A DNA stretch of 64,000 nt, taken from assembly GCA_027619975.1 (NCBI GenBank), contig JAQCGX010000009.1:5813-69812 (forward strand), read 5' to 3'. Positions 5,154-46,153 of this stretch are shown here, one piece after another. The notes beneath the pieces were generated by a model. It saw only the letters and a program-made list of their open reading frames with translations. It was not told the origin of the DNA and did not search any database. Made by a program: the position numbers and the translations under genes. The stretch is from Nitrospinota bacterium (GTDB lineage Bacteria > Nitrospinota > Nitrospinia > Nitrospinales > VA-1). Numbering within the stretch: position 1 is the stretch's first letter; the number at the start of each line of letters is the position of its first letter.

Positions 5154-5951
5154 ATGGTTATCAACTTCATGCCCCAGTTTAACATTTCGCGGTTGTTTAT
5201 TTCATTATTCCTGCTCATTTTCACAGCTTCCTGTTCCCAGCATTTTGAAAATAATCTGGATTTCCAGGCCAAAAAGGCCTTGCAGGACCTTATGGTAATT
5301 CAGGAATCCTTCTATGCAGAAAATCAACGCTACGCCCACAATCTGGTTGAGATAGAAAAATATAATTTAAAATACCATAATGGCCTCGTTTATCTTGAAA
5401 TTGAATCGGCAGGTAAGGACCAGTACCGGGCGATCTCACTTCCCGCTGAATCCACTACCGCTCGGGTTTTTGCCTTCGATACCAGTAAGGGGGGCTTCTA
5501 TGAAATGGACGAAATTGAAGTGTCTCAATATGTTTTGGGCGCTTTAAAACATATTCGAAAAGAGCAGTCAGACAAAAGCATCAGCGCCAATGCTTTCTAC
5601 CTTTTGCTTGCCACATTATTCGTTTTAGGCGTTCGCTTGCAAGCCCGCTTTAAGGAATCAAAAAACCAGCCGGTCTTCGCGGCGTTCTACCTGAGCCTGA
5701 TCCCGCTCACCTGGTCATTTTCTGTTTTAAACTATATGTCGAAGGATATTGTCTTCAGCAGTTCTTTAAGCGGAGTCTCAGTCGCGGCTTTTGCCATTGC
5801 TGTTTTGATACTAGTGATCGACGGATGGTGGTTCAAACGGCAAAATATATACGACACATCTGCTTCCCTGTTTAGTTTACTGGCAATGACCTTGATCATT
5901 GCTCTTTTCAGCGGCGGCGTGATGATACATACGTTTCTGGGGTATTCCTGA
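5154..5951 (+). CDS. hypothetical membrane lipoprotein
   Basis: 265 aa with an N-terminal hydrophobic segment ending LIFTASC (lipobox-like). A soluble domain is followed by about 4 predicted TM helices. I recognise no family. Confidence 0.5.
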   Translation: MVINFMPQFNISRLFISLFLLIFTASCSQHFENNLDFQAKKALQDLMVIQESFYAENQRYAHNLVEIEKYNLKYHNGLVYLEIESAGKDQYRAISLPAESTTARVFAFDTSKGGFYEMDEIEVSQYVLGALKHIRKEQSDKSISANAFYLLLATLFVLGVRLQARFKESKNQPVFAAFYLSLIPLTWSFSVLNYMSKDIVFSSSLSGVSVAAFAIAVLILVIDGWWFKRQNIYDTSASLFSLLAMTLIIALFSGGVMIHTFLGYS

Positions 5952-9225: not shown

Positions 9226-9433
9226 GTTGACCATCCGCATCGTAGGCCTGGCAAGCTTGATATTGGGTGGAGTTTTATTTGTCTTTTCGGTGAAAAGCAT
9301 CGCCGCCGAATGGCCGCAAATATTTGTGGGGCTACTTTCCGTATTATTTTCGGCCATGGGATTTGGGCTTCTTATCATGCCCCTCGACTCTCTGGACAAA
9401 AACAGTCCCGGAGATGACTCGAATACCGGTTAA
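9218..9433 (+). CDS. small hypothetical membrane protein
   Basis: 71 aa with two hydrophobic helices. It overlaps the upstream stop by 8 nt, suggesting an operon. Confidence 0.4.
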   Translation: MDKLTIRIVGLASLILGGVLFVFSVKSIAAEWPQIFVGLLSVLFSAMGFGLLIMPLDSLDKNSPGDDSNTG

Positions 9434-9758
9434 TCCAATTGCAGGCTCGTACTTTTTTCAGACGGTAAGGCCCTGTAATTTCCGTAAACTAACCAATTTC
9501 ATTAGACTTTAATTTCTTGACTTTACAAAAACCCTATGATATTTCTCTACCCTATTTTAATGTGTCCGGTATTTTTTGGGTAAGATTTAAGGGTTTAATT
9601 TTCAATGAGTTACCCTTATTTCATGAACAGAAAAAAACACCATTCGGAGAATAAGGCCTCACAATCAGGGGGTCGAAGTTACCAAATTTTTCTCTGAAAT
9701 ACGTATTGATTTATAACGTGTCAAATTTTCCAATCATCTGGCGTTAGAGGGAGCCCTG

Positions 9759-11867
9759 ATGGACAGTTTTCGGAACCTGAAATACAAGTCATTTTCACTT
9801 AAAGTTCTTTTCGCCCTGATTCTGGTTTACGGACTGGTTCACCTGGCGCCTGAACCTTTTTCGTCGTCCTCAAAATTCAGCTTCGTGGGTGGTCCTGACA
9901 AGGTATTTGCTCAGGAAGAAGATGAGTTTGAAGAAGGCGAGGAAGCCCCTGCTGAAGGCGAGGAAACTGGTGCAGAAGAAGGTTCTACAGATGGTGAAGA
10001 TGCCGCCGTTGCGGGTGAAGAAGAGGAAGATTTATCCTACCTGACAGATATCGGACCCGCTAAAGACCATGAATTTAAACCTTTCTCCTTCATGGGATTT
10101 AGTAACCGCAAGATCACCTGGGTAGCCGCCCAATTACATATTCTGTTTGCCTCGTTCATTCTTGGCTGTCCCATGTTTGTTGTCATCATGGAGGTCATGG
10201 GGGCCCGAAGGACTCAGGGGGTTCGTAAGGCGATCATTCTTTCCAATGTTTTTCTCGGCGTGCTGATCGGCGTTGTTATTGGGATAACCGGAGAAATTAT
10301 CGTCGGTATTCACCATGGCGTTCTCTATGGTCTATGGGCGTGTGCATTTGGCGCATTTATCGTGAGTTTCCTGAACTATTTCCATCGATTGATGGACGTC
10401 AGAGTTTCAGCTCTGGTTGGCGCCGTATTTGGGACACTCATCGCTATTCCACTGACCCCTGTCGAACATATTGAAACATCGGGCATCATCTTAGCCGTCA
10501 TTAATGGCGCGGTGGGTGGCACCCTGGCAAATATGATCATGTTTGCCAAGTCCGACTTCAAGTTTGAGCGGTTGGCTCACGAGATCACCAAAGTCATCGG
10601 CATGTGTTACAGCTTCACCGCTCTCACCGGCGGGTTGTTTCTTTTTGTGATGATCGTGCTCTACCAGGACTTCATCACCTATCTGGTGCAATCCTTCCCG
10701 GTTCTGTTCATGGTGGCCTACCCGACGCTGTTCATCCTGGAAACCATCGTCATGTACATTTACGTGTACTCCTGGGATCCACTCAATCAACAGAATAAGA
10801 AAGGCCGACACATCGTTTGTGGCGTTGTCTTGAATGTTTTAGGTCTGTCTCTGCTTTGTGCGCTCGACGGTCCGGCTACTTTCATGCAGACACCTCCAAA
10901 ACCCCTTGATGAACTGATGAACATCAATGAATGGTCGCGAATCGCCACTTCCACCTGGATGCCGCTCAATTACCATCGTCTGGTGGGCAATGGCACCTTT
11001 GGCGGTTATATGGTCGGCATCATCGGCGCGTACATGTATCTTTGGTCGGATAAAAAGGAAGAAAAGGAATATTACGACTGGGTCGGGTATATCGGCAACA
11101 TCATTGGCGTCGCCATCATGATTCCCCTGCCAGCCATGGGTTATATCTTCGTCCGCGAAATTTACCAATACGATGCCACCATCGGCATGTACATCATGTC
11201 GGACCGGGAATCAATGTTCATGCTCGTGCAGGGTTTACTGGTCGGAACCATGTTCAGCGCCAGTAATATCTATATGTGGGTGAGTATGAAGCGTATTGAA
11301 AATGCACAACGGTTTTTCCCGGCCATGAAGTTCGGATTCATCCTGATTGTCATATCCGCAACCATTTGGTTCACACCCAGGCGCTTCTTTGCCACGATGA
11401 TGCCGGAACCGGGAATGGACCCCAATATGGTGCTACCGGATAACCTGGCGTTCCTGGCTCTCATGATATCCAAGAACACAGCGGCATTTGCCCTGGTCAC
11501 GGTAACTTTCATCAATTACGTCTTTTACACCATTGCCACGAAAACCGGGAAGGTGCATTACGGAAAAATCAACCCGCTGGGAATATATGTTCTGATTTTA
11601 CTCGGATTTGCGGATATCTGGCTGATGAGCTGGATGGGGACCATTCGTGAGCTATCGCGAATGAACTGGCATATCTATAAAGTCTTTAAAGACGTGACGC
11701 CGGAGAAATTTGCCCCATCGCTTGCTGAGTCCGGGTTCCATGTCACCACCATCGTTTGGACGTTTTTTATTATTATGACGGCCACGATCTGGCTTGCCAT
11801 TAAGTACCCAAAAACCAAGAAAACACCGGCAATACCGGCTACAGCTACGCCACAAATGGCTGAATAA
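9759..11867 (+). CDS. cytochrome bd oxidase subunit I (CydA)-like polytopic membrane protein ('bd-like oxidase')
   Basis: 702 aa with many TM helices. The first core helix, WVAAQLHILFASFILGCPMFVVIMEVMG, mirrors the CydA helix-1 pattern (H-x-L-F ... L-G ... I-M-E) that carries the heme-ligand His. After the signal anchor there is an N-terminal acidic tract of about 45 aa. Confidence 0.65.
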   Translation: MDSFRNLKYKSFSLKVLFALILVYGLVHLAPEPFSSSSKFSFVGGPDKVFAQEEDEFEEGEEAPAEGEETGAEEGSTDGEDAAVAGEEEEDLSYLTDIGPAKDHEFKPFSFMGFSNRKITWVAAQLHILFASFILGCPMFVVIMEVMGARRTQGVRKAIILSNVFLGVLIGVVIGITGEIIVGIHHGVLYGLWACAFGAFIVSFLNYFHRLMDVRVSALVGAVFGTLIAIPLTPVEHIETSGIILAVINGAVGGTLANMIMFAKSDFKFERLAHEITKVIGMCYSFTALTGGLFLFVMIVLYQDFITYLVQSFPVLFMVAYPTLFILETIVMYIYVYSWDPLNQQNKKGRHIVCGVVLNVLGLSLLCALDGPATFMQTPPKPLDELMNINEWSRIATSTWMPLNYHRLVGNGTFGGYMVGIIGAYMYLWSDKKEEKEYYDWVGYIGNIIGVAIMIPLPAMGYIFVREIYQYDATIGMYIMSDRESMFMLVQGLLVGTMFSASNIYMWVSMKRIENAQRFFPAMKFGFILIVISATIWFTPRRFFATMMPEPGMDPNMVLPDNLAFLALMISKNTAAFALVTVTFINYVFYTIATKTGKVHYGKINPLGIYVLILLGFADIWLMSWMGTIRELSRMNWHIYKVFKDVTPEKFAPSLAESGFHVTTIVWTFFIIMTATIWLAIKYPKTKKTPAIPATATPQMAE

Positions 11868-11884
11868 CCGTTTAGGAGCAAGGA

Positions 11885-13180
11885 ATGCAGGAAAAAACTT
11901 TTAAACAAAAAGCGACCAAAATTGTACCCATATCTCTGGGTTTAATAGCCGTATTCTGGATTGGCGGGAACGCTATCGGCCTTTCCCCCGCCGTTGTAAA
12001 ACGGTTAGCGGGAATCGTTCTGGTGGCGATGACCTATGCCCTTTTATTGGCTATTCCAAAATCAGAATTTAAGGAAAAGACCTTTTTCCAGAATTTGAAG
12101 TTTAAGATTCCGGTCATCACCATTATTGCAGTCATTATCTGGGTTGTCTCCGGGCAATTTGGTTTTCCCATCTGGTGGCAGATTGAGTTTGTGGCTTTTG
12201 CTTTGGTCGGCCTGACCTATTTCGTGTTGCTGGACTTACGGGCCATGAAACCGGAAAAAGGCCAGGTTCAAACCACGATTCGCCTGATCGGCACGTATGC
12301 ACTACCGTCCATACTTTTTATTGTCATCACCGCCCAGCTCCCCCAGTTCGATCCACAATTTGAGTTGGATAAGCTCAACAAGCCGCCGGTGAAACTATCT
12401 GGCTTGGCAGGCCCTGAAGTCATCGCTGCGGGCCGGGAAGTGTTCGAAAATAACAAATGTTTCAACTGCCATAAAGTTTTCTGGGAAGGCAATTCCGATC
12501 GAGGCCCCAATTTAGGCACCAAGCAAATTGGCCTTTACTCGGATGACTACATTAAAGAACAAATTTTGGAACCCAGAAAAAAACAATCGCCCGGCTTTGA
12601 TGACCCCAAGTCGAAAAAAGCCATGCCGACTTATTATGGGGAGGATCTCAGCGAGGATGAACTGTCCGCTCTTGTGTCTTACTTAAAGACTCTGAGAGAT
12701 CCCACCCATATGCCGGTGGAGGGAAAATTCCCCGATCAATGGACCTGGTGGGACGATGCGACTATAGTTGCCGAAGGCCAGCAGGTTTTTGAGGGAGCCG
12801 AACCCGCAACGGAGGGTCTCAACTGTGCGGTCTGTCATGGTAAAGATGGAACTCCCATGATGACCGGTGCTTTGGACTTCAGAAAAGAAGACAATCCCGA
12901 CACCTTAAAAATGCCCGATAGGCTCCCTGATGTGTTACTCAAAGACTGGCCGGATGCTCTTTGGTACAAAAGGGTCACTCGCGGCGTCGACGCTACGCCT
13001 ATGGCTCCCTGGGGCATGATATTTCAGCATCTGTATTTGTGGAAAGCCGAAGCCTATGCGCGGACATTTCACGATCCTCTGGATAAGAGAGCCGCAAAAC
13101 GGCCTGTTCCACCTGTTCCCACCAAGGAAGAGGTTGAAAGTTGGAAAACGAATGGATTGTTCCTCGATCCGCTTATTTAA
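11885..13180 (+). CDS. membrane-anchored diheme c-type cytochrome
   Basis: 431 aa with about 5 N-terminal TM helices. These are followed by two cytochrome c domains with CFNCH and CAVCH heme motifs. It lies 18 nt downstream of the CydA-like gene. Confidence 0.75.
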   Translation: MQEKTFKQKATKIVPISLGLIAVFWIGGNAIGLSPAVVKRLAGIVLVAMTYALLLAIPKSEFKEKTFFQNLKFKIPVITIIAVIIWVVSGQFGFPIWWQIEFVAFALVGLTYFVLLDLRAMKPEKGQVQTTIRLIGTYALPSILFIVITAQLPQFDPQFELDKLNKPPVKLSGLAGPEVIAAGREVFENNKCFNCHKVFWEGNSDRGPNLGTKQIGLYSDDYIKEQILEPRKKQSPGFDDPKSKKAMPTYYGEDLSEDELSALVSYLKTLRDPTHMPVEGKFPDQWTWWDDATIVAEGQQVFEGAEPATEGLNCAVCHGKDGTPMMTGALDFRKEDNPDTLKMPDRLPDVLLKDWPDALWYKRVTRGVDATPMAPWGMIFQHLYLWKAEAYARTFHDPLDKRAAKRPVPPVPTKEEVESWKTNGLFLDPLI

Positions 13181-13208: not shown

Positions 13209-13240
13209 AGCCGGTTCCTTTATCGGGGCCGGCTTTTTTA
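13209..13240 (+). terminator. rho-independent terminator
   Basis: agccggttcc-tttatc-ggggccggct followed by TTTTTT, 29 nt after the cytochrome c stop. Confidence 0.7.
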
Positions 13241-13321
13241 TTGCTTTAAATCCTTCCTTCGCCGCTTTTCTGTTAAAATATAAAAACCTATAAAGACTTA
13301 AAGACAATTTTGGAGAACTTA

Positions 13322-13801
13322 ATGAGCAAACTTGATGACCTGATAAAAGAAAACCTGACCCCGGATGGAGAGGTTTTAACCCTTAGGGAAAAGTTTTTGG
13401 GTGTACGTGGTTTAATGAAATTAGCCGAACACCCGGCACTGGCTACAGTAAAAAAACTGGTTCTACCCGCAAATCAGGCCAGCGACGAAGGCGCAGAAGC
13501 ATTGGCAAACTCGCCTTACCTGGGAAACTTGGAGCATCTCAATTTAAACCACAATGAAATTGGGGATGACGGTGCCATTGCCCTGGCAAACTCCGATAAA
13601 CTCCCCAAGCTCACAGATTTGTCCATGTTTGGAAATGCTGTTGGCGATGTGGGGGCTAAAGCTTTTGCGGATTCCCCGCACAGCAAAAAATACATCAAGC
13701 TGGATCTCTACAAAAACCAGTTTGGAAGCGAGGGGTACAGAGCCTTAACTGAATCTGAAAATTTAAAAAACTGCGAGGAACTGGAAATCTATCGCGACTA
13801 A
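13322..13801 (+). CDS. leucine-rich repeat protein (ribonuclease-inhibitor-like LRR)
   Basis: About 159 aa from the ATG at 13322 (GGAGA 5 nt upstream). It has repeats of about 28 aa: LxxLxLxxNxIGDxGAxALAxS. Confidence 0.7.
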   Translation: MSKLDDLIKENLTPDGEVLTLREKFLGVRGLMKLAEHPALATVKKLVLPANQASDEGAEALANSPYLGNLEHLNLNHNEIGDDGAIALANSDKLPKLTDLSMFGNAVGDVGAKAFADSPHSKKYIKLDLYKNQFGSEGYRALTESENLKNCEELEIYRD

Positions 13802-37603: not shown

Positions 37604-38440
37604 TCATTCCTTATAATTGTAAGTTTTTGTCTTTGCTGTGTAAGGCATGGATTTAGATTTAAACAAAAGTTTATCCTTCTTTACAGCAAAGTCTTCGATC
37701 AAGAGAGGTTTCTTTTCTGATATAGCCACCTCTTTTTTGCGATCCTTAACTTTTTCAAGCTTTTGGTCCATATTATCTTCGTTCCAGTACTTGTCCTTGT
37801 CGTGAACCTTCAACTTGCGTTCTTCAAAGTTGAACTTATACTTGTCATGGACTTCAGGCTTAAAGGGAGTATTTGGGTGGGTATGACACCGCGTACAGAC
37901 ATTGGCGTAATCCCATCTCTGTCCATACTTTTCAATGTCGGCCTTTTTAAAATCTCCCTTGGTGTTTTTCATGACAACCCGGAACTGGGCTCCGCCGGCA
38001 ACCGAATGACACATTTCACAGCCAACCTGTTCTAAATTTGGTTCATCCGGGTCTATCTTTGTGGCGACTACTTTGCCCTTTTTATTCTTAGTGCCAGCCG
38101 GCTTGAATCCCCCTGCTTGCATATAACCGGTAGTGTGGCATCGCAAACATAGCGGAGTGGTGGTATAGTCCTTTTGCGGGTCCAGCTTGACCCTTTTTTT
38201 AGCTTCTTCACGGACTCCAGGTTTCAGCAGGTTAAAGGTGCCACCATGAGGAGAGTTTTTCCAACCCTGGTAATAGGCGTCGTGGCAACTTCCATTACAT
38301 TTGACAGCTCCCACATAGGATGGCTGCGCAGGGACTTTCTTTTTTTTACTTTTCCCTTTTGCATCCGCTTCTCCGGCCGCACTGATTATCAAGGCAAAAG
38401 AGAGCACAACCAAACTTAAAAACTTTAACGTCTTCCCCAT
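37604..38440 (-). CDS. secreted multiheme cytochrome c (c554-like), four heme motifs
   Basis: The start at 38440 (MGKTLKF) is preceded by GGAGGAG. The protein has a signal peptide. Heme motifs are CNGSCH (CX3CH) plus CLRCH, CEMCH and CTRCH. Confidence 0.75.
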   Translation of the reverse strand: MGKTLKFLSLVVLSFALIISAAGEADAKGKSKKKKVPAQPSYVGAVKCNGSCHDAYYQGWKNSPHGGTFNLLKPGVREEAKKRVKLDPQKDYTTTPLCLRCHTTGYMQAGGFKPAGTKNKKGKVVATKIDPDEPNLEQVGCEMCHSVAGGAQFRVVMKNTKGDFKKADIEKYGQRWDYANVCTRCHTHPNTPFKPEVHDKYKFNFEERKLKVHDKDKYWNEDNMDQKLEKVKDRKKEVAISEKKPLLIEDFAVKKDKLLFKSKSMPYTAKTKTYNYKE

Positions 38441-38611
38441 TATCTCCTCCAATCCACTTTCCAAAAATAATTCCTTTTACAGGTTAACTGTCGAAGAATA
38501 ATATATTTACTTAAAGGGGTCAACCACAATTTAGGTAAGTAATTGTAAATGCTATTTTGACGCCAAATTTCCTGCATCTCATAAAATTTCATTAGAAGGA
38601 AAAATGTTTCC

Positions 38612-44401: not shown

Positions 44402-46153
44402 TTAACTGTCATCTTCCTCTGAACTTTGTTTGACCTTGTTCACCTGGCTCAAAAGAAATTTCAATTCAGCGATCTGCTCACCTGCCACCCGTATGGTGGC
44501 TTTTTCTTTGTTCAAACTTTGAATTTTCATGTTCACGTCTTCAGCGATCAGGTTCAGGTTACTCAACCGCTTATCGACATCATTCAACAACCCAATCTTA
44601 TTGTTCAGAATATCAATCTTGATCTCAGCTTCCTCGGTGACCGAGTTCAGCTTGTCTATATTGAGATTGATCTTGTTCATGTTTTCCCGTTCTTTGTCAA
44701 TCCGGTCTTTTTCCGAGTTGACTCGGGCAATGACATTATCCAGTTTAGCCAGAGCCACCTCGGTTTCCCGGACTTTATCTTCACTGGCGACCACCTGTTT
44801 GATCCTTTTTTCCACTTGGGCCGTCAAATTGTTAAGGTGCTCTATCTTCTGTTCCGCTCGGACGATGAGCTCCTCTTTATCGTCCAAAACTTCCTGTCGC
44901 AATTTCAGATCTTTTAAAACATTGTCAAGCTCCGAAAGCTTACTTTCTACAGTCAGAACCTTTAATGTTTCCTGGCTCAGATCTTCCACCTTACTTGCAA
45001 AGTTGCTGGACACCTCTCCCAGCTCTTCCCTAATCTGGCTGATTTGGTTGTTTTCCTCTTTTGCATCCGTAAGGTCTTTAAACCTGGATCGCAATTCAGT
45101 TTCCAATATGCTGTGTTTGGTAGCCAGGCTGTTCATTCTCTTTTCTTGAGCATCAATGGCGGATTTTTCCTTGGCAATGTCCAGAATCTTTTCCTCCACC
45201 GTATTGGACATCGCTTTCAAACTCTCCAGCTTGGTGTCCAATTTGTCCAGAAAATCGATCTTCTTGCTGACTTTGGCGATTTTGATATTGGCTTCTTCGA
45301 TGAAGAAATCCAGTCCATCCACTTTTTTCTCCAGCTTTTCGATCAAGGCCTTTCTTTGCATCTGAGTTTCCATCTTGACATCCAGACTGATGACCATAGA
45401 GCTGAGATCATTGATTTTCTTGTCCACTTGATCTACGAGGTTTTGCTTGCGAATGATCTCATCCATCTGCAGGCGAGTGGATTCGCTGACGGACTCAATT
45501 TGCTGAAGAATGGCGCCGACAGAGTCCAGTTTTTCAATTTCGCCATCCAAACGTTTGACCTTTTGTTCCGCTTCATCGGGCATCTGGTTGAACCGGTTCA
45601 TTTTTTCATTAGCGACATCAATATTTCTCATTTCCTCTTTCAGGAGAATCATTTTGTTGCTCAGATTGTCCATGAGGAAAGAATTCAGCTTGTTGATTTT
45701 TTCTTCCGTTTTTTCGATAACTACTTTCTCATCCAAAATTCGGGAAATTTTAGTCTCGACATCAACGGATAAAGCATCAAGATCTCTCAATCGACCGCTT
45801 ATGCTACGGATCATCTCATTTTTAACGCATATGTTTTTCGATTCTACTTTCAGGTCGCTGATTTCCTGACTGAGCTTGTTTAAAGAATCATGCGTTTCAC
45901 GGACAATGTGGCTCTTCCCCAGCAGGGATTCATAATCATCTTTCACCACTTCCAACGTCCGCTTCAAATCCTCCGTATCTCTTGTGTAATTTTTAATTGC
46001 CTCTTTTTCCTGGAGAATGGTGGCAAAGCGGGAATCGAGTTCCACCAGGGCGGTTTTCATTTCCGACACTTTTAACGAGCCGGTTTTCATCATCTCTTTA
46101 AAACTGACAACTTCATCCACCTTGTCAGACACGCTGTTTAGCATGTTTTCCAA
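44402..46153 (-). CDS. long coiled-coil repeat protein (C-terminal ORF of a probably split gene)
   Basis: 583 aa, extremely K/E/L/N rich, with a recurring K-I-x-x-L-N/D heptad-type pattern. The reading frame stays open upstream of its start (AQTGSINRLENML). Confidence 0.6.
   Translation of the reverse strand: MENMLNSVSDKVDEVVSFKEMMKTGSLKVSEMKTALVELDSRFATILQEKEAIKNYTRDTEDLKRTLEVVKDDYESLLGKSHIVRETHDSLNKLSQEISDLKVESKNICVKNEMIRSISGRLRDLDALSVDVETKISRILDEKVVIEKTEEKINKLNSFLMDNLSNKMILLKEEMRNIDVANEKMNRFNQMPDEAEQKVKRLDGEIEKLDSVGAILQQIESVSESTRLQMDEIIRKQNLVDQVDKKINDLSSMVISLDVKMETQMQRKALIEKLEKKVDGLDFFIEEANIKIAKVSKKIDFLDKLDTKLESLKAMSNTVEEKILDIAKEKSAIDAQEKRMNSLATKHSILETELRSRFKDLTDAKEENNQISQIREELGEVSSNFASKVEDLSQETLKVLTVESKLSELDNVLKDLKLRQEVLDDKEELIVRAEQKIEHLNNLTAQVEKRIKQVVASEDKVRETEVALAKLDNVIARVNSEKDRIDKERENMNKINLNIDKLNSVTEEAEIKIDILNNKIGLLNDVDKRLSNLNLIAEDVNMKIQSLNKEKATIRVAGEQIAELKFLLSQVNKVKQSSEEDDS

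What the first reader, a model, noticed from the sequence alone, without database searches (positions are those of the whole stretch)
9759..13180. CydA-like oxidase subunit without CydB, partnered with a membrane diheme cytochrome c and carrying an acidic N-terminal tract
The 702-aa protein keeps the CydA helix-1 signature (LHILF...LG...IMEVMG) but is much longer than canonical CydA. No CydB or CydX gene follows it. Instead, 18 nt downstream, there is a 431-aa protein with about 5 TM helices and two CxxCH cytochrome c domains, then a strong terminator, so this is a two-gene operon. That arrangement implies electron entry from a c-type cytochrome rather than quinol. Such an arrangement has been proposed for the poorly characterised 'bd-like' oxidases of nitrite oxidisers, but I know of no biochemical proof. 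After its signal anchor the protein also has a tract of about 45 residues that is more than half Asp/Glu (QEEDEFEEGEEAPAEGEETGAEEGSTDGEDAAVAGEEEEDLSY). I know of no counterpart in CydA.
Basis: partly seen in the sequence, partly recalled or inferred. Interest (0 to 1): 0.65.

Follow-up and report, generated by a model that had tools for sequence, protein, structure and literature searches.

The report
Nitrospinota bd-like oxidase with cytochrome c
This two-gene operon from a marine nitrite-oxidising bacterium (phylum Nitrospinota) encodes an already described but biochemically untested "cytochrome bd-like" oxidase subunit and its membrane-anchored diheme cytochrome c partner; only two lineage-specific additions, an acidic tail and four extra membrane helices, seem not to have been described.

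Summary
A 702-aa CydA-like gene (9759-11867) is followed after 17 nt by a 431-aa gene with five TM helices and two CxxCH motifs, then a strong terminator. No cydB lies in the 64-kb window.

The protein belongs to the published OR-N family of the cytochrome bd superfamily, the "bd-like oxidases" of nitrite oxidisers. It keeps the His19, Glu107, His126 and His186 equivalents (H127, E328, H351, H406) and has an invariant candidate for Met393 (M569). It has Tyr at Glu99 and no Q-loop.

The cytochrome c gene follows it in all 64 Nitrospinota loci that have room. A cytochrome c gene also follows in every distant relative I examined, and in some it is fused to the oxidase. Its closest solved relative is Kustd1711, a +350 mV diheme cytochrome c from the anammox nxr cluster.

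Two features appear undescribed. All 120 Nitrospinota homologues, and outside them only one Nitrospinales protein among 169 other family members, carry both the disordered poly-Asp/Glu tail and a conserved 113-residue, four-helix insertion between CydA TM1 and TM2.

Interest is moderate to low.

The parts
9428..9758 (+). Upstream intergenic region, presumed to hold the promoter and 5' UTR of the two-gene operon
   Evidence: About 330 nt with no ORF lie between the stop of a small conserved ORF and the ATG. The simple sigma-70 scan found no site here above chance. The promoter role is inferred, not shown.
9759..11867 (+). Gene for the 702-aa cytochrome bd-like (OR-N family) CydA homologue
   Evidence: ORF. 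PF01654 at E 2.7e-7. Profile hit to CydA 5DOQ_A at E 1.6e-17. AF2 model with pLDDT 76.6 and pTM 0.76. The top ten Foldseek PDB hits are all CydA/AppC at probability 1.0.
9786..9911 (+). N-terminal signal anchor (helix, residues 10-29) followed by a conserved small-x-small motif (V-F-A, residues 49-51; A-x-A in most homologues) directly before the acidic tract
   Evidence: Hydropathy and AF2 helix 10-29. The A-Y-A / A-F-A / V-x-A motif sits directly before the acidic run in the 58 full-length homologues, by visual inspection of the listed N-termini. Cleavage is inferred, not shown.
9912..10040 (+). Poly-Asp/Glu tract (residues 52-94), predicted to be disordered and periplasmic
   Evidence: 21 of 43 residues are Asp/Glu and none is Lys/Arg. 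pLDDT is below 50 for residues 29-99. The tract is acidic but variable in sequence and length in all 120 Nitrospinota homologues, and absent from 168 of 169 other family members. A weak 21-nt tandem repeat lies at 9932-9978.
10104..10202 (+). CydA TM1 (residues 116-148) carrying H127, the equivalent of E. coli His19, and invariant E145
   Evidence: The motif W..AQLHxLF...LG......IME aligns to 5DOQ_A His21. H127 is invariant in 74 sequences. Mean column identity across Nitrospinota is 96%.
10212..10550 (+). Nitrospinota-specific insertion of about 113 residues (152-264), forming four TM helices between CydA TM1 and TM2
   Evidence: In every distant homologue, query residues 111-151 and 264 onward align to adjacent target positions. 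AF2 helices are 153-182, 187-208, 214-232 and 240-261. The H127-to-E328 spacing is 201 in all 120 Nitrospinota proteins and 87-91 in the 119 profile hits (median 87 among the other 50 family members scored). Mean column identity is 80%, with conserved (>=97% of homologues) R156, N163, E179, H185, C195, N206 and H209. There is no similarity to any other segment or Pfam family.
10551..11048 (+). CydA core TM2-TM5 with Y321 (Glu99 position), E328 (Glu107), Y333/Y335/Y337/W339, H351 (His126) and H406 (His186)
   Evidence: Residue-by-residue profile alignment to 5DOQ_A and 9R2G_A. The residues are invariant in the 74-sequence alignment and across the OR-N relatives.
11049..11864 (+). C-terminal six TM helices (TM6-TM11) that replace the Q-loop half of CydA. 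They carry invariant M569 (candidate Met393 equivalent), K572, N573, R630, R634, H638 and D645
   Evidence: The profile does not align with CydA beyond TM5. AF2 helices. Invariance. M569 lies at the periplasmic start of TM9, on the same side as H406; this topology is inferred and the positive-inside rule.
11874..11878 (+). Shine-Dalgarno AGGAG, 6 nt before the ATG of the cytochrome c gene
   Evidence: Read directly from the sequence.
11885..13180 (+). Gene for the 431-aa membrane-anchored diheme cytochrome c
   Evidence: ORF. PF00034 at E 5.4e-17 and PF13442 at 2.2e-12. It lies adjacent and on the same strand in 64 of 64 Nitrospinota loci with room.
11885..12349 (+). N-terminal five-helix membrane domain of the cytochrome c (residues 1-155)
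   Evidence: AF2 helices 6-30, 35-56, 67-91, 96-116 and 127-151, from a low-confidence model. Hydropathy. There is no Pfam family. TM3-5 are conserved (69%) and TM1-2 are variable (31%).
12419..12700 (+). Cytochrome c domain 1 (residues 179-272): C192-x-x-C195-H196, distal M247
   Evidence: Aligns to Kustd1711 (7ZS0_A) including its Met116-Pro motif, at E 1.2e-6. The motif and the Met are conserved in 63 of 64 homologues.
12773..13084 (+). Cytochrome c domain 2 (residues 297-400): C314-x-x-C317-H318, candidate distal M373
   Evidence: Motif. Conserved in 63-64 of 64 homologues and in the Chloroflexota partner.
13209..13244 (+). Intrinsic terminator that ends the two-gene operon
   Evidence: 10-bp stem with 7 G-C pairs, a 6-nt loop and a TTTTTATT tail.

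Best explanation
This is the Nitrospinota version of the published OR-N type 'cytochrome bd-like oxidase'. It is a two-subunit membrane complex.

Subunit A (702 aa) keeps the heme-binding TM1-TM5 core of CydA but has lost the quinol-binding Q-loop. Subunit B (431 aa) is anchored by five TM helices and holds two His/Met class-I cytochrome c domains in the periplasm.

The most likely mechanism is as follows. High-potential electrons from periplasmic nitrite oxidoreductase reach B, either directly or through a soluble carrier. They pass from its two c hemes to a low-spin heme b near the periplasmic face of A (ligands H406 and probably M569). From there they reach the high-spin heme site in the TM1-4 bundle (H127), where O2 is reduced to water. 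Protons come from the cytoplasm along the retained part of the CydA proton path (E328, H351, Y321). This separates charge across the membrane without pumping.

What is shown: homology, retained ligands, lack of a Q-loop, strictly conserved gene pairing, natural fusions, and kinship of B to a +350 mV cytochrome. What is inferred: heme content, electron path, O2 as acceptor and energy conservation.

The poly-Asp/Glu tail (periplasmic, disordered, preceded by a conserved A-x-A) most plausibly acts as an electrostatic docking or divalent-cation-binding arm. The four-helix insertion probably shields or extends the TM1-4 heme bundle where CydB would otherwise sit. Both of these are speculative.
For: Family membership:
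- PF01654 scores above its gathering threshold.
- The family profile hits CydA 5DOQ_A at 1.6e-17, 9R2G_A at 2.2e-15 and 6RKO_A at 2.8e-6, over TM1-5 only.
- The AF2 model (pTM 0.76) matches only CydA/AppC chains at probability 1.0.

Ligands and motifs:
- H127, Y321, E328, Y333, Y337, W339, H351, N404, H406, R407, M569, K572 and N573 are invariant in 74 sequences, and Y335 is nearly so (W in a few).
- The pattern Y at Glu99, E at Glu107 and His at 19/126/186 matches the OR-N2 row of Supplementary Table 6 of Murali et al.; their OR-N1 reference lists Gly at Glu107.

Pairing with cytochrome c:
- 64 of 64 Nitrospinota loci.
- A cytochrome c gene lies directly downstream in Methylomirabilis, Chloroflexota, Nitrospirota and other loci.
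- Fused bd-like-cytochrome c proteins exist.
- The partner B matches the 397-aa Chloroflexota partner over both its TM and heme parts, at E 1.3e-38.

High-potential donor:
- B's nearest solved relative is Kustd1711, from the nxr cluster of Kuenenia. It has His/Met hemes at about +350 mV (PMC11791136).
- In Chloroflexota the same pair sits directly after arsenite-oxidase-like Rieske and molybdopterin genes, another periplasmic donor of high-potential electrons.

Physiological need:
- Ca. Nitrohelix vancouverensis grows aerobically on nitrite and lacks any heme-copper oxidase (PMC8026999). It carries the syntenic pair.

The literature proposes the same function (PMC3578206, PMC10839748, bioRxiv 10.1101/2021.01.16.426971).
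Against: No member of the OR-N family has been purified or assayed, so heme content and O2 reduction are unproven (PMC10839748).

Glu99 is replaced by Tyr. The heme b595 ligand Glu445 has no identified equivalent, so the tri-heme site of canonical cytochrome bd may not be intact.

M569 as the sixth ligand rests on invariance and predicted topology, not on an alignment to Met393.

Published work favours a heterodimer of two CydA paralogues (CydAA'), which a two-gene operon with a single CydA-like gene does not explain. Mueller et al. list the other Nitrospinota paralogue, not this one, under Complex IV.

The model of B is of low confidence (pLDDT 57), and no model of the complex could be made.
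Confidence: 0.6

Rival explanations
1. The protein is only one half of a CydAA'-type heterodimeric oxidase. It would pair in the membrane with the second, unlinked Nitrospinota bd-like paralogue (the one clustered with three cytochrome c / NxrC-like genes), which would take the place of CydB.
For: Murali et al. and Kop et al. hypothesise that OR-N1 and OR-N2 CydA associate, and the Nitrospirales comparison says the same. In the Nitrospirota locus L085, two bd-like genes lie in one cluster with Rieske and cytochrome b genes. In cytochrome bd, His19 and heme d sit at the subunit I/II interface.
Against: Across the 64 Nitrospinota loci the pair is adjacent. No second CydA-like gene was called in the flanks I inspected: the 64-kb window and L088. 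The closest outside relatives (Chloroflexota L084 and L086) also have a single bd-like gene plus one cytochrome c within 6 kb on each side. Murali et al. note that OR-N2 often occurs without another CydA-like gene. The Nitrospinota-specific four-helix insertion and the five-helix anchor of B could fill the CydB position (speculative).
Confidence: 0.2
2. The complex does not reduce O2. It would run electrons uphill from cytochrome c to the quinone pool (reverse electron transport, like an alternative complex III) to supply reductant for CO2 fixation.
For: This was proposed for the bd-like proteins of the NXR cluster by Lucker et al. 2013 and, for a related cluster, by Mundinger et al. 2019. Nitrite oxidisers need reverse electron flow.
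Against: All residues of the CydA quinol site and the Q-loop are missing. The residues that are kept are those of the O2-reducing heme bundle and its proton path. The two-gene operon includes no ion-translocating module.
Confidence: 0.1
3. It is a membrane cytochrome b/c electron conduit or detoxifying enzyme (NO, H2O2 or O2 scavenging, or a membrane anchor for periplasmic NXR) rather than the main respiratory oxidase.
For: Canonical cytochrome bd has such side roles. Nitrospina NXR is membrane-associated but its NxrC looks soluble, so an unidentified anchor is needed. The acidic tail could tether a partner.
Against: The TM core is very strongly conserved (88-96% column identity across the phylum), and the pair was found in 78 species-representative Nitrospinota genomes and in organisms lacking other cytochrome c oxidases. 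Both point to a central function. The operon is not linked to nxr genes in this window.
Confidence: 0.1

Closest known systems
[quoted passage not shown] 2010, 2013)
   Same: It has the CydA TM1-5 core with His19, His126 and His186 equivalents. It has Tyr at Glu99 and the Y-x-Y-x-Y-x-W motif. It lacks a Q-loop or quinol site, has many extra TM helices and an N-terminal signal sequence, and is followed by a cytochrome c gene.
   Different: The Nitrospinota clade adds a four-helix insertion between TM1 and TM2 and a poly-acidic N-terminal tail. These are absent from all but one (a Nitrospinales protein) of the 169 other family members examined. It lacks the extra helices that other subfamilies carry after TM8 or TM9. 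Its operon has only one cytochrome c gene, with no EB_dh/NxrC-like gene and no Rieske/cytochrome b genes. Assignment to a subfamily is unresolved. The nearest relatives and their residue numbering fit the OR-N1 reference, but Glu is present at the Glu107 position, where that reference lists Gly.
Canonical cytochrome bd quinol oxidase CydAB(X) (E. coli 6RKO, G. thermodenitrificans 5DOQ)
   Same: The fold and sequence of TM1-5 are shared, as are the axial His of the active-site heme and of heme b558 and part of the proton channel.
   Different: There is no Q-loop, no CydB or CydX, Glu99 is Tyr, no Glu445 equivalent is identified, there are 15 TM helices plus a signal anchor instead of 9, and the presumed donor is cytochrome c.
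Kustd1711, the diheme cytochrome c of the Kuenenia stuttgartiensis nxr gene cluster (PDB 7ZS0; PMC11791136)
   Same: It is the nearest solved relative of subunit B (E 1.2e-6). Both have two class-I cytochrome c domains with CxxCH and a Met-Pro distal ligand, and the P...GFD frame of the calcium-binding loop is shared.
   Different: Kustd1711 is soluble and has a beta-strand 'nose' domain. B has a five-helix membrane anchor and a 5-residue insertion before the Met. Calcium binding and redox potential of B are untested.
CcoP (FixP), the membrane-anchored diheme cytochrome c subunit of cbb3 oxidase
   Same: The architecture is the same: an N-terminal membrane anchor followed by two cytochrome c domains that feed a terminal oxidase. 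There is a weak TIGR00782 match (E 9.5e-12).
   Different: The score of 44.8 is far below the equivalog cut-off of 179.95, so B is not CcoP. B has five TM helices where CcoP has one or two (the CcoP figure is from my own knowledge, not tested). The catalytic partner is a CydA homologue, not CcoN.
Acidic accessory domains of cytochrome bc1 complexes (the yeast Qcr6 / bovine 'hinge' protein, and the acidic N-terminal domain of Paracoccus denitrificans cytochrome c1). From my own knowledge, not retrieved here.
   Same: Each is a long, disordered, strongly acidic stretch attached to a respiratory complex on the side where cytochrome c docks.
   Different: There is no sequence relationship. Here the tract is the N-terminal extension of a CydA homologue. 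Its role is untested. A literature search for the Paracoccus case found nothing in the held library.

Membership tests
Cytochrome bd superfamily, subunit I (CydA, PF01654) | Significant sequence match to the family model | tested here: met
   PF01654 at E 2.7e-7 and 30 bits, against a gathering score of 26.2. The family profile matches 5DOQ_A at E 1.6e-17.
Cytochrome bd superfamily, subunit I (CydA, PF01654) | CydA fold | tested here: met
   AF2 model with pTM 0.76. Foldseek PDB ranks 1-10 are all CydA/AppC, at probability 1.0 and target-normalised TM-score 0.40-0.58.
Cytochrome bd superfamily, subunit I (CydA, PF01654) | His19 (axial ligand of the active-site heme) in TM1 | tested here: met
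   H127 aligns to His21 of 5DOQ_A and is invariant in 74 sequences.
Canonical quinol-oxidising cytochrome bd (qOR) | His186 and Met393 ligands of heme b558 | tested here: inconclusive
   H406 aligns to His186. Met393 lies outside the alignable region. M569 is an invariant candidate on the periplasmic side of TM9 and matches the M430/N434 pair that Murali et al. list for OR-N2.
Canonical quinol-oxidising cytochrome bd (qOR) | Proton-channel glutamates Glu99 and Glu107 | tested here: not met
   The Glu107 equivalent, E328, is present. The Glu99 position is Y321 in all relatives.
Canonical quinol-oxidising cytochrome bd (qOR) | Periplasmic Q-loop with a quinol-binding site between TM6 and TM7 | tested here: not met
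   The profile aligns with CydA only up to TM5. The model has only short loops between helices after TM5. The literature reports the same for the family.
Canonical quinol-oxidising cytochrome bd (qOR) | Co-transcribed CydB (and CydX) | tested here: not met
   The only downstream gene before the terminator is the cytochrome c. No CydB-like protein is in the window.
OR-N family (Murali et al. 2021) | CydA homologue with a conserved TM1-4 oxygen-reduction site, without a quinol site | tested here: met
   compared with Supplementary Table 6.
OR-N family (Murali et al. 2021) | Operon with alternative electron donors (c-type cytochromes) | tested here: met
   A diheme cytochrome c lies downstream in 64 of 64 loci. 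The same holds in distant relatives.
OR-N family (Murali et al. 2021) | Assignment to subfamily OR-N1 or OR-N2 (14 TM helices; OR-N1 with petABD, OR-N2 with multiheme cytochromes c plus an EbdC-like subunit) | tested here: inconclusive
   The nearest relatives (40-47% identity: P0122-P0124, L085 bd1) number like the OR-N1 reference (H52, Y133, Y147, Y149, H162), and one sits beside Rieske and cytochrome b genes. However, E328 is present where the OR-N1 reference lists Gly. The protein has 15 TM helices plus an anchor, and the operon has neither pet genes nor EbdC. The reference sequences could not be fetched.
Heme-copper oxidase superfamily | Homology to COX1/CcoN (PF00115) with a CuB site | tested here: not met
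   No PF00115 match at E <= 1, and no heme-copper oxidase among the fold matches. The published suggestion of HCO-like Cu ligands in some bd-like proteins could not be checked residue by residue.
Class I c-type cytochromes (subunit B) | CxxCH heme attachment with a distal Met, two domains | tested here: met
   C192/C195/H196 with M247 and C314/C317/H318 with M373 are conserved in 63-64 of 64 homologues. PF00034 at E 5.4e-17. Alignment to Kustd1711 includes Met116-Pro.
CcoP of cbb3 oxidase (TIGR00782) | Score above the equivalog cut-off | tested here: not met
   44.8 bits against a cut-off of 179.95.

The most novel reading that the evidence does not exclude
The Nitrospinota pair is a self-sufficient cytochrome c:O2 oxidoreductase of the bd type, and the long-sought main terminal oxidase of the abundant marine nitrite oxidisers that lack heme-copper oxidases. 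In this reading, the lineage-specific four-helix insertion and the five-helix anchor of the cytochrome c take over the structural role of CydB. The poly-Asp/Glu N-terminal arm captures the electron donor (NXR or a basic carrier), or concentrates Ca2+/Mg2+ to keep the c hemes at high potential, as calcium does in Kustd1711.
Probability: 0.2. Interest if true: 0.7.

Novelty: already known. Interest (0 to 1): 0.33.

Why it matters
Nitrospinota are the main nitrite oxidisers of the ocean, and most of them have no recognisable cytochrome c oxidase. Which enzyme reduces O2 in them, and with what affinity, bears on nitrification in oxygen-minimum zones. This operon is one of the two published candidates.

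The present work does not answer that question. It narrows the target in four ways:
- The module is always bd-like plus one membrane diheme cytochrome c, never with a second CydA in the loci inspected.
- The same module follows arsenite-oxidase-like genes in Chloroflexota.
- The partner is related to a cytochrome measured at +350 mV.
- The Nitrospinota proteins carry two unique, strictly co-occurring additions that a structural study would need to explain.

Tried and rejected
1. A single-sequence search of the PDB found nothing relevant. A family profile was needed.

2. I considered H237 as the His19 equivalent, because its spacing to E328 (91 residues) fits the OR-N2 reference. I rejected it. 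H127 sits in the exact CydA helix-1 motif, aligns in the profile search and is invariant. H237 did not reach the 97% conservation cut-off, and the spacing difference is explained by the insertion.

3. I tested whether the four inserted helices are a relocated copy of the extra helices of other subfamilies, or are related to the TM domain of B. An HMM of the insertion found only Nitrospinota proteins, and Pfam found nothing. Rejected.

4. The AF2 model of B was too poor to use (pLDDT 57, pTM 0.33). I did not fold-search it and make no claim about its membrane domain beyond five helices.

5. Subfamily assignment from the ligand pattern pointed to OR-N2. Residue numbering and nearest neighbours pointed to OR-N1. 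This is left open.

6. Rfam found nothing in the window. The promoter scan gave no site above chance in front of the operon.

7. Lucker et al. 2010 (the original Nide0901 description) is not held, so the proposed copper ligands could not be checked.

8. Literature searches for the Paracoccus acidic cytochrome c1 domain and for Nitrospina metatranscriptome evidence gave nothing usable.

9. I did not model the A+B complex, because the structure tool takes one chain only.

Full report
**1. Observation**

The window carries two same-strand ORFs: 9759-11867 (702 aa) and 11885-13180 (431 aa). They are separated by 17 nt that contain an AGGAG. A terminator-like hairpin with a 10-bp stem and a T-run follows at 13209-13234.

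The first protein matches Pfam PF01654 (cytochrome bd subunit I) just above threshold: E 2.7e-7 and 30 bits, against a gathering score of 26.2. The second matches PF00034 and PF13442 (cytochrome c). It has CxxCH at residues 192 and 314 and five N-terminal hydrophobic helices.

The acidic tract is real. The quoted 43 residues hold 21 Asp/Glu and no Lys/Arg. No other ORF segment in the window has 15 or more Asp/Glu in 40 residues.

The neighbours are housekeeping genes: RlmN, a GT2 glycosyltransferase and a LAB_N protein upstream, and an LRR protein and BolA downstream. The only other polytopic membrane proteins in the 64 kb are an ABC permease, a TRAP DctM and an unassigned 265-aa protein with five predicted TM helices (5154-5951). 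So there is no cydB.

**2. Organism and family**

The 120 best database relatives are 78-100% identical and, where named, come from Nitrospinota or Nitrospinaceae, including Ca. Nitrohelix vancouverensis. A scan of species-representative genomes returned 78 loci, all Nitrospinota.

The protein belongs to a group that has been described several times:
- the 'cytochrome bd-like oxidases' of Nitrospira, Nitrospina and anammox bacteria (PMC3578206; PMC5029188; PMC8026999);
- the OR-N family of the cytochrome bd superfamily, as formalised by Murali, Gennis and Hemp (bioRxiv 10.1101/2021.01.16.426971);
- a family reported as conserved across Nitrospinota by Kop et al. (PMC10839748).

These papers already state that the family lacks the quinol site, sits in operons with c-type cytochromes, probably uses cytochrome c as donor, and has never been studied biochemically.

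**3. Tests of homology and ligands**

A profile of 13 family members hits solved CydA chains over TM1-TM5 only: G. thermodenitrificans 5DOQ_A at E 1.6e-17, M. smegmatis 9R2G_A at 2.2e-15 and E. coli 6RKO_A at 2.8e-6.

The printed alignment gives these equivalences (E. coli numbering / G. thermodenitrificans numbering):

| Window residue | CydA equivalent |
|---|---|
| H127 | His19 / His21 |
| Y321 | Glu99 / Glu101 |
| E328 | Glu107 / Glu108 |
| Y335, Y337 | the aromatic pair |
| H351 | His126 / His128 |
| H406 | His186 |

These residues, together with N404, R407, M569, K572, N573, R630, R634, H638 and D645, are invariant in a 74-sequence alignment that spans 32-93% identity; Y335 is the one exception, replaced by Trp in a few sequences. 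The pattern Tyr/Glu/His/His/His equals the OR-N2 row of Murali's Supplementary Table 6; their OR-N1 reference lists Gly at the Glu107 position.

Met393 lies outside the alignable part. M569 is the obvious candidate. It is invariant, it forms an M-x-x-x-N pair like the M430/N434 listed for OR-N2, and in the model it sits at the periplasmic start of a helix, on the same side as H406. No equivalent of Glu445 was identified.

An AlphaFold2 model (pLDDT 76.6, pTM 0.76; the TM core is mostly above 85) has a signal-anchor helix, a disordered stretch at residues 29-99, and 15 TM helices. Its ten best PDB matches are all cytochrome bd subunit I chains at probability 1.0.

**4. The partner and its conservation**

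The 431-aa cytochrome c gene lies adjacent and on the same strand in every one of the 64 Nitrospinota loci that extend far enough. In 63 it starts within 700 nt downstream, and in one it overlaps by 8 nt. Both CxxCH motifs and the Met residues M247 and M373 are conserved in 63-64 of 64 homologues.

Outside the phylum, a cytochrome c gene directly follows the bd-like gene in every locus I fetched:
- a Methylomirabilis locus, L079;
- an unassigned locus, L080, where heme-copper oxidase genes also follow;
- Chloroflexota loci L084, L086 and L087;
- a Nitrospirota locus, L085.

In several proteins the two cytochrome c domains are fused to the C-terminus of the bd-like protein (P0129, P0283, P0288, P0289, P0392). 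That is independent evidence that the two parts work together.

The closest outside relatives of the window protein (about 43-47% identity) are Chloroflexota proteins. Their downstream 391-397-aa cytochrome c matches the window's partner over both the membrane and heme parts (E 1.3e-38). There the pair directly follows Rieske and molybdopterin genes with the arsenite-oxidase-type Rieske_3 domain. That is another periplasmic enzyme that yields high-potential electrons.

The nearest solved relative of the partner is Kustd1711 (7ZS0, E 1.2e-6). It is the diheme cytochrome c of the Kuenenia nxr gene cluster, with His/Met hemes at about +350 mV held high by bound calcium (PMC11791136).

**5. What seems to be new**

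Distant homologues align to query residues 111-151 and then, without a gap on their side, to residue 264 onward. Residues 152-264 are therefore an insertion between CydA TM1 and TM2. In the model it forms four helices, an even number, so the topology is preserved.

A motif-based count gives these results:

| Group | H127-to-E328 spacing | Best 40-residue window before TM1 |
|---|---|---|
| 120 Nitrospinota proteins | exactly 201 | 16-35 Asp/Glu |
| 169 other family members | 87-91 in the 119 profile hits; median 87 in the other 50 | 0-14 Asp/Glu (median 3) |

The single exception among the 169 is P0121, a Nitrospinales protein, which has both features.

The insertion is well conserved (80% column identity). 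It has conserved (>=97% of homologues) polar residues in the membrane: R156, N163, E179, H185, C195, N206 and H209. It resembles nothing else.

The acidic tract is conserved in composition but not in sequence or length (20-54 Asp/Glu in the N-terminal region). By visual inspection of the listed N-termini it follows a small-x-small motif (A-Y-A, A-F-A or V-F-A), and it precedes a conserved EEEDLSYLTDIGPAK motif. That looks like a signal-peptidase site which would leave the acidic arm as the free periplasmic N-terminus. Cleavage is not shown.

Other subfamilies carry their extra helices at different places, after TM8 or after TM9. So the family seems to add peripheral helices freely.

I found no mention of the insertion or the tail in the papers I read, but I could not see their supplementary figures.

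**6. Subfamily**

Two lines of evidence disagree.
- The ligand pattern fits OR-N2.
- The nearest relatives (P0122-P0124 and the first bd-like gene of L085) number exactly like Murali's OR-N1 reference (H52, Y133, Y147, Y149, H162), and one lies beside Rieske and cytochrome b genes, as described for OR-N1.

The EB_dh-containing operons that define OR-N2 belong to the more distant relatives, at about 30-33% identity. Mueller's table lists, under Complex IV, a different Nitrospinota paralogue (660 aa followed by three cytochrome c genes). The window protein is thus most likely the Nitrospinota OR-N1-clade paralogue. I leave this open because the reference sequences could not be fetched.

**7. Mechanism and rivals**

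The best-supported reading is a cytochrome c-dependent, bd-type O2 reductase. Electrons would pass from NXR to the two c hemes of B, then to a low-spin heme b at H406/M569, and then to the H127 site where O2 is reduced. Protons would come through the retained E328/H351 path.

Shown: homology, ligand retention, loss of the Q-loop, obligate pairing and fusion with cytochrome c, and kinship to a high-potential cytochrome. Also shown is the presence of the pair in Ca. Nitrohelix vancouverensis, which grows aerobically without any heme-copper oxidase.

Inferred: heme content, electron path, O2 as acceptor and energy conservation.

The rivals are:
- half of a CydAA' heterodimer with the unlinked paralogue (the literature's favoured idea);
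- reverse electron transport to quinone;
- a non-respiratory conduit, anchor or detoxifying role.

None is excluded. The single-CydA two-gene module, which recurs in Chloroflexota, argues mildly for self-sufficiency.

**8. Verdict**

But the gene family, its cytochrome c partnership, its occurrence in Nitrospinota and the proposed function are already published, and this exact protein is in public databases.

The new content is limited to two strictly co-occurring, Nitrospinota-restricted additions, the link of the partner to Kustd1711, and the link of the module to arsenite-oxidase-like genes. Interest is moderate to low unless biochemistry follows.

Noticed in passing
window 9227-9433 (+): A small ORF of about 68 aa with two TM helices starts (TTG) right at the end of the LAB_N gene. 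A 65-aa homologue sits at the same place in Ca. Nitrohelix vancouverensis (L088 7536-7733), sharing the motif S-I-x-x-E-W-P-Q...GLLSVLF. It seems to belong to the upstream GT2/LAB_N operon, not to the oxidase operon, and it is not CydX-like in position.
   Followed up: partly
window 37604-38464 (-): A stand-alone 286-aa protein with three CxxCH motifs and one TM or signal helix matches Cytochrome_C554 (PF13435, E 7.3e-17). It is the only other c-type cytochrome in the window, about 24 kb from the operon, between a UDP-glucose dehydrogenase gene and a queuosine synthesis gene.
   Followed up: partly
L084 2662-8707 and L086 2720-8755 (Chloroflexota/Caldilineae contigs): The closest non-Nitrospinota relatives of the pair lie directly downstream of Rieske and molybdopterin (Rieske_3) genes that look like arsenite oxidase AioB/AioA. 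A GAF-HisKA_3 kinase and a GerE-type regulator lie further upstream. This suggests a dedicated arsenite-to-O2 chain through a bd-like oxidase.
   Followed up: partly
P0129, P0283, P0288, P0289, P0392; locus L082 6001-8643: These are natural fusions of a bd-like CydA homologue with two C-terminal cytochrome c domains (880-1014 aa). In L082 the fusion is followed by a 757-aa triheme cytochrome c with an EB_dh domain.
   Followed up: partly
L085 5531-13971 (Nitrospirota contig JACQFA010000027.1): One cluster holds two bd-like genes (656 and 606 aa), each followed by cytochrome c genes, with Rieske and cytochrome b genes between them. This layout is the one discussed in the literature as a possible complex III/IV supercomplex of Nitrospira.
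   Followed up: no
window 9932-9978 (+): A weak 21-nt tandem repeat (2.2 copies, 76% matches) lies inside the acidic tract. The tract differs widely in length among homologues (20-54 Asp/Glu before TM1). Repeat expansion and contraction could explain this.
   Followed up: no
window 13310-13801 (+): A 163-aa leucine-rich-repeat protein (LRR_6, E 4.8e-18) lies just after the operon's terminator. A 160-aa ORF lies at the same position in Ca. Nitrohelix vancouverensis (L088 11629-12111). LRR proteins are uncommon in bacteria, and its role is unknown.
   Followed up: no
window 44402-46153 (-): A 583-aa ORF has no Pfam match at E <= 1e-5. Several shorter ORFs overlap it on the opposite strand.
   Followed up: no
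alignments A1/A3; P0124, P0126, P0131, P0139: Different OR-N lineages carry their extra TM helices at different positions: after TM1 in Nitrospinota, after TM8 in the L085-bd1/P0124 group, and after TM9 in the EB_dh-cluster group. The helix count of '14' reported for the family therefore hides non-homologous additions.
   Followed up: partly
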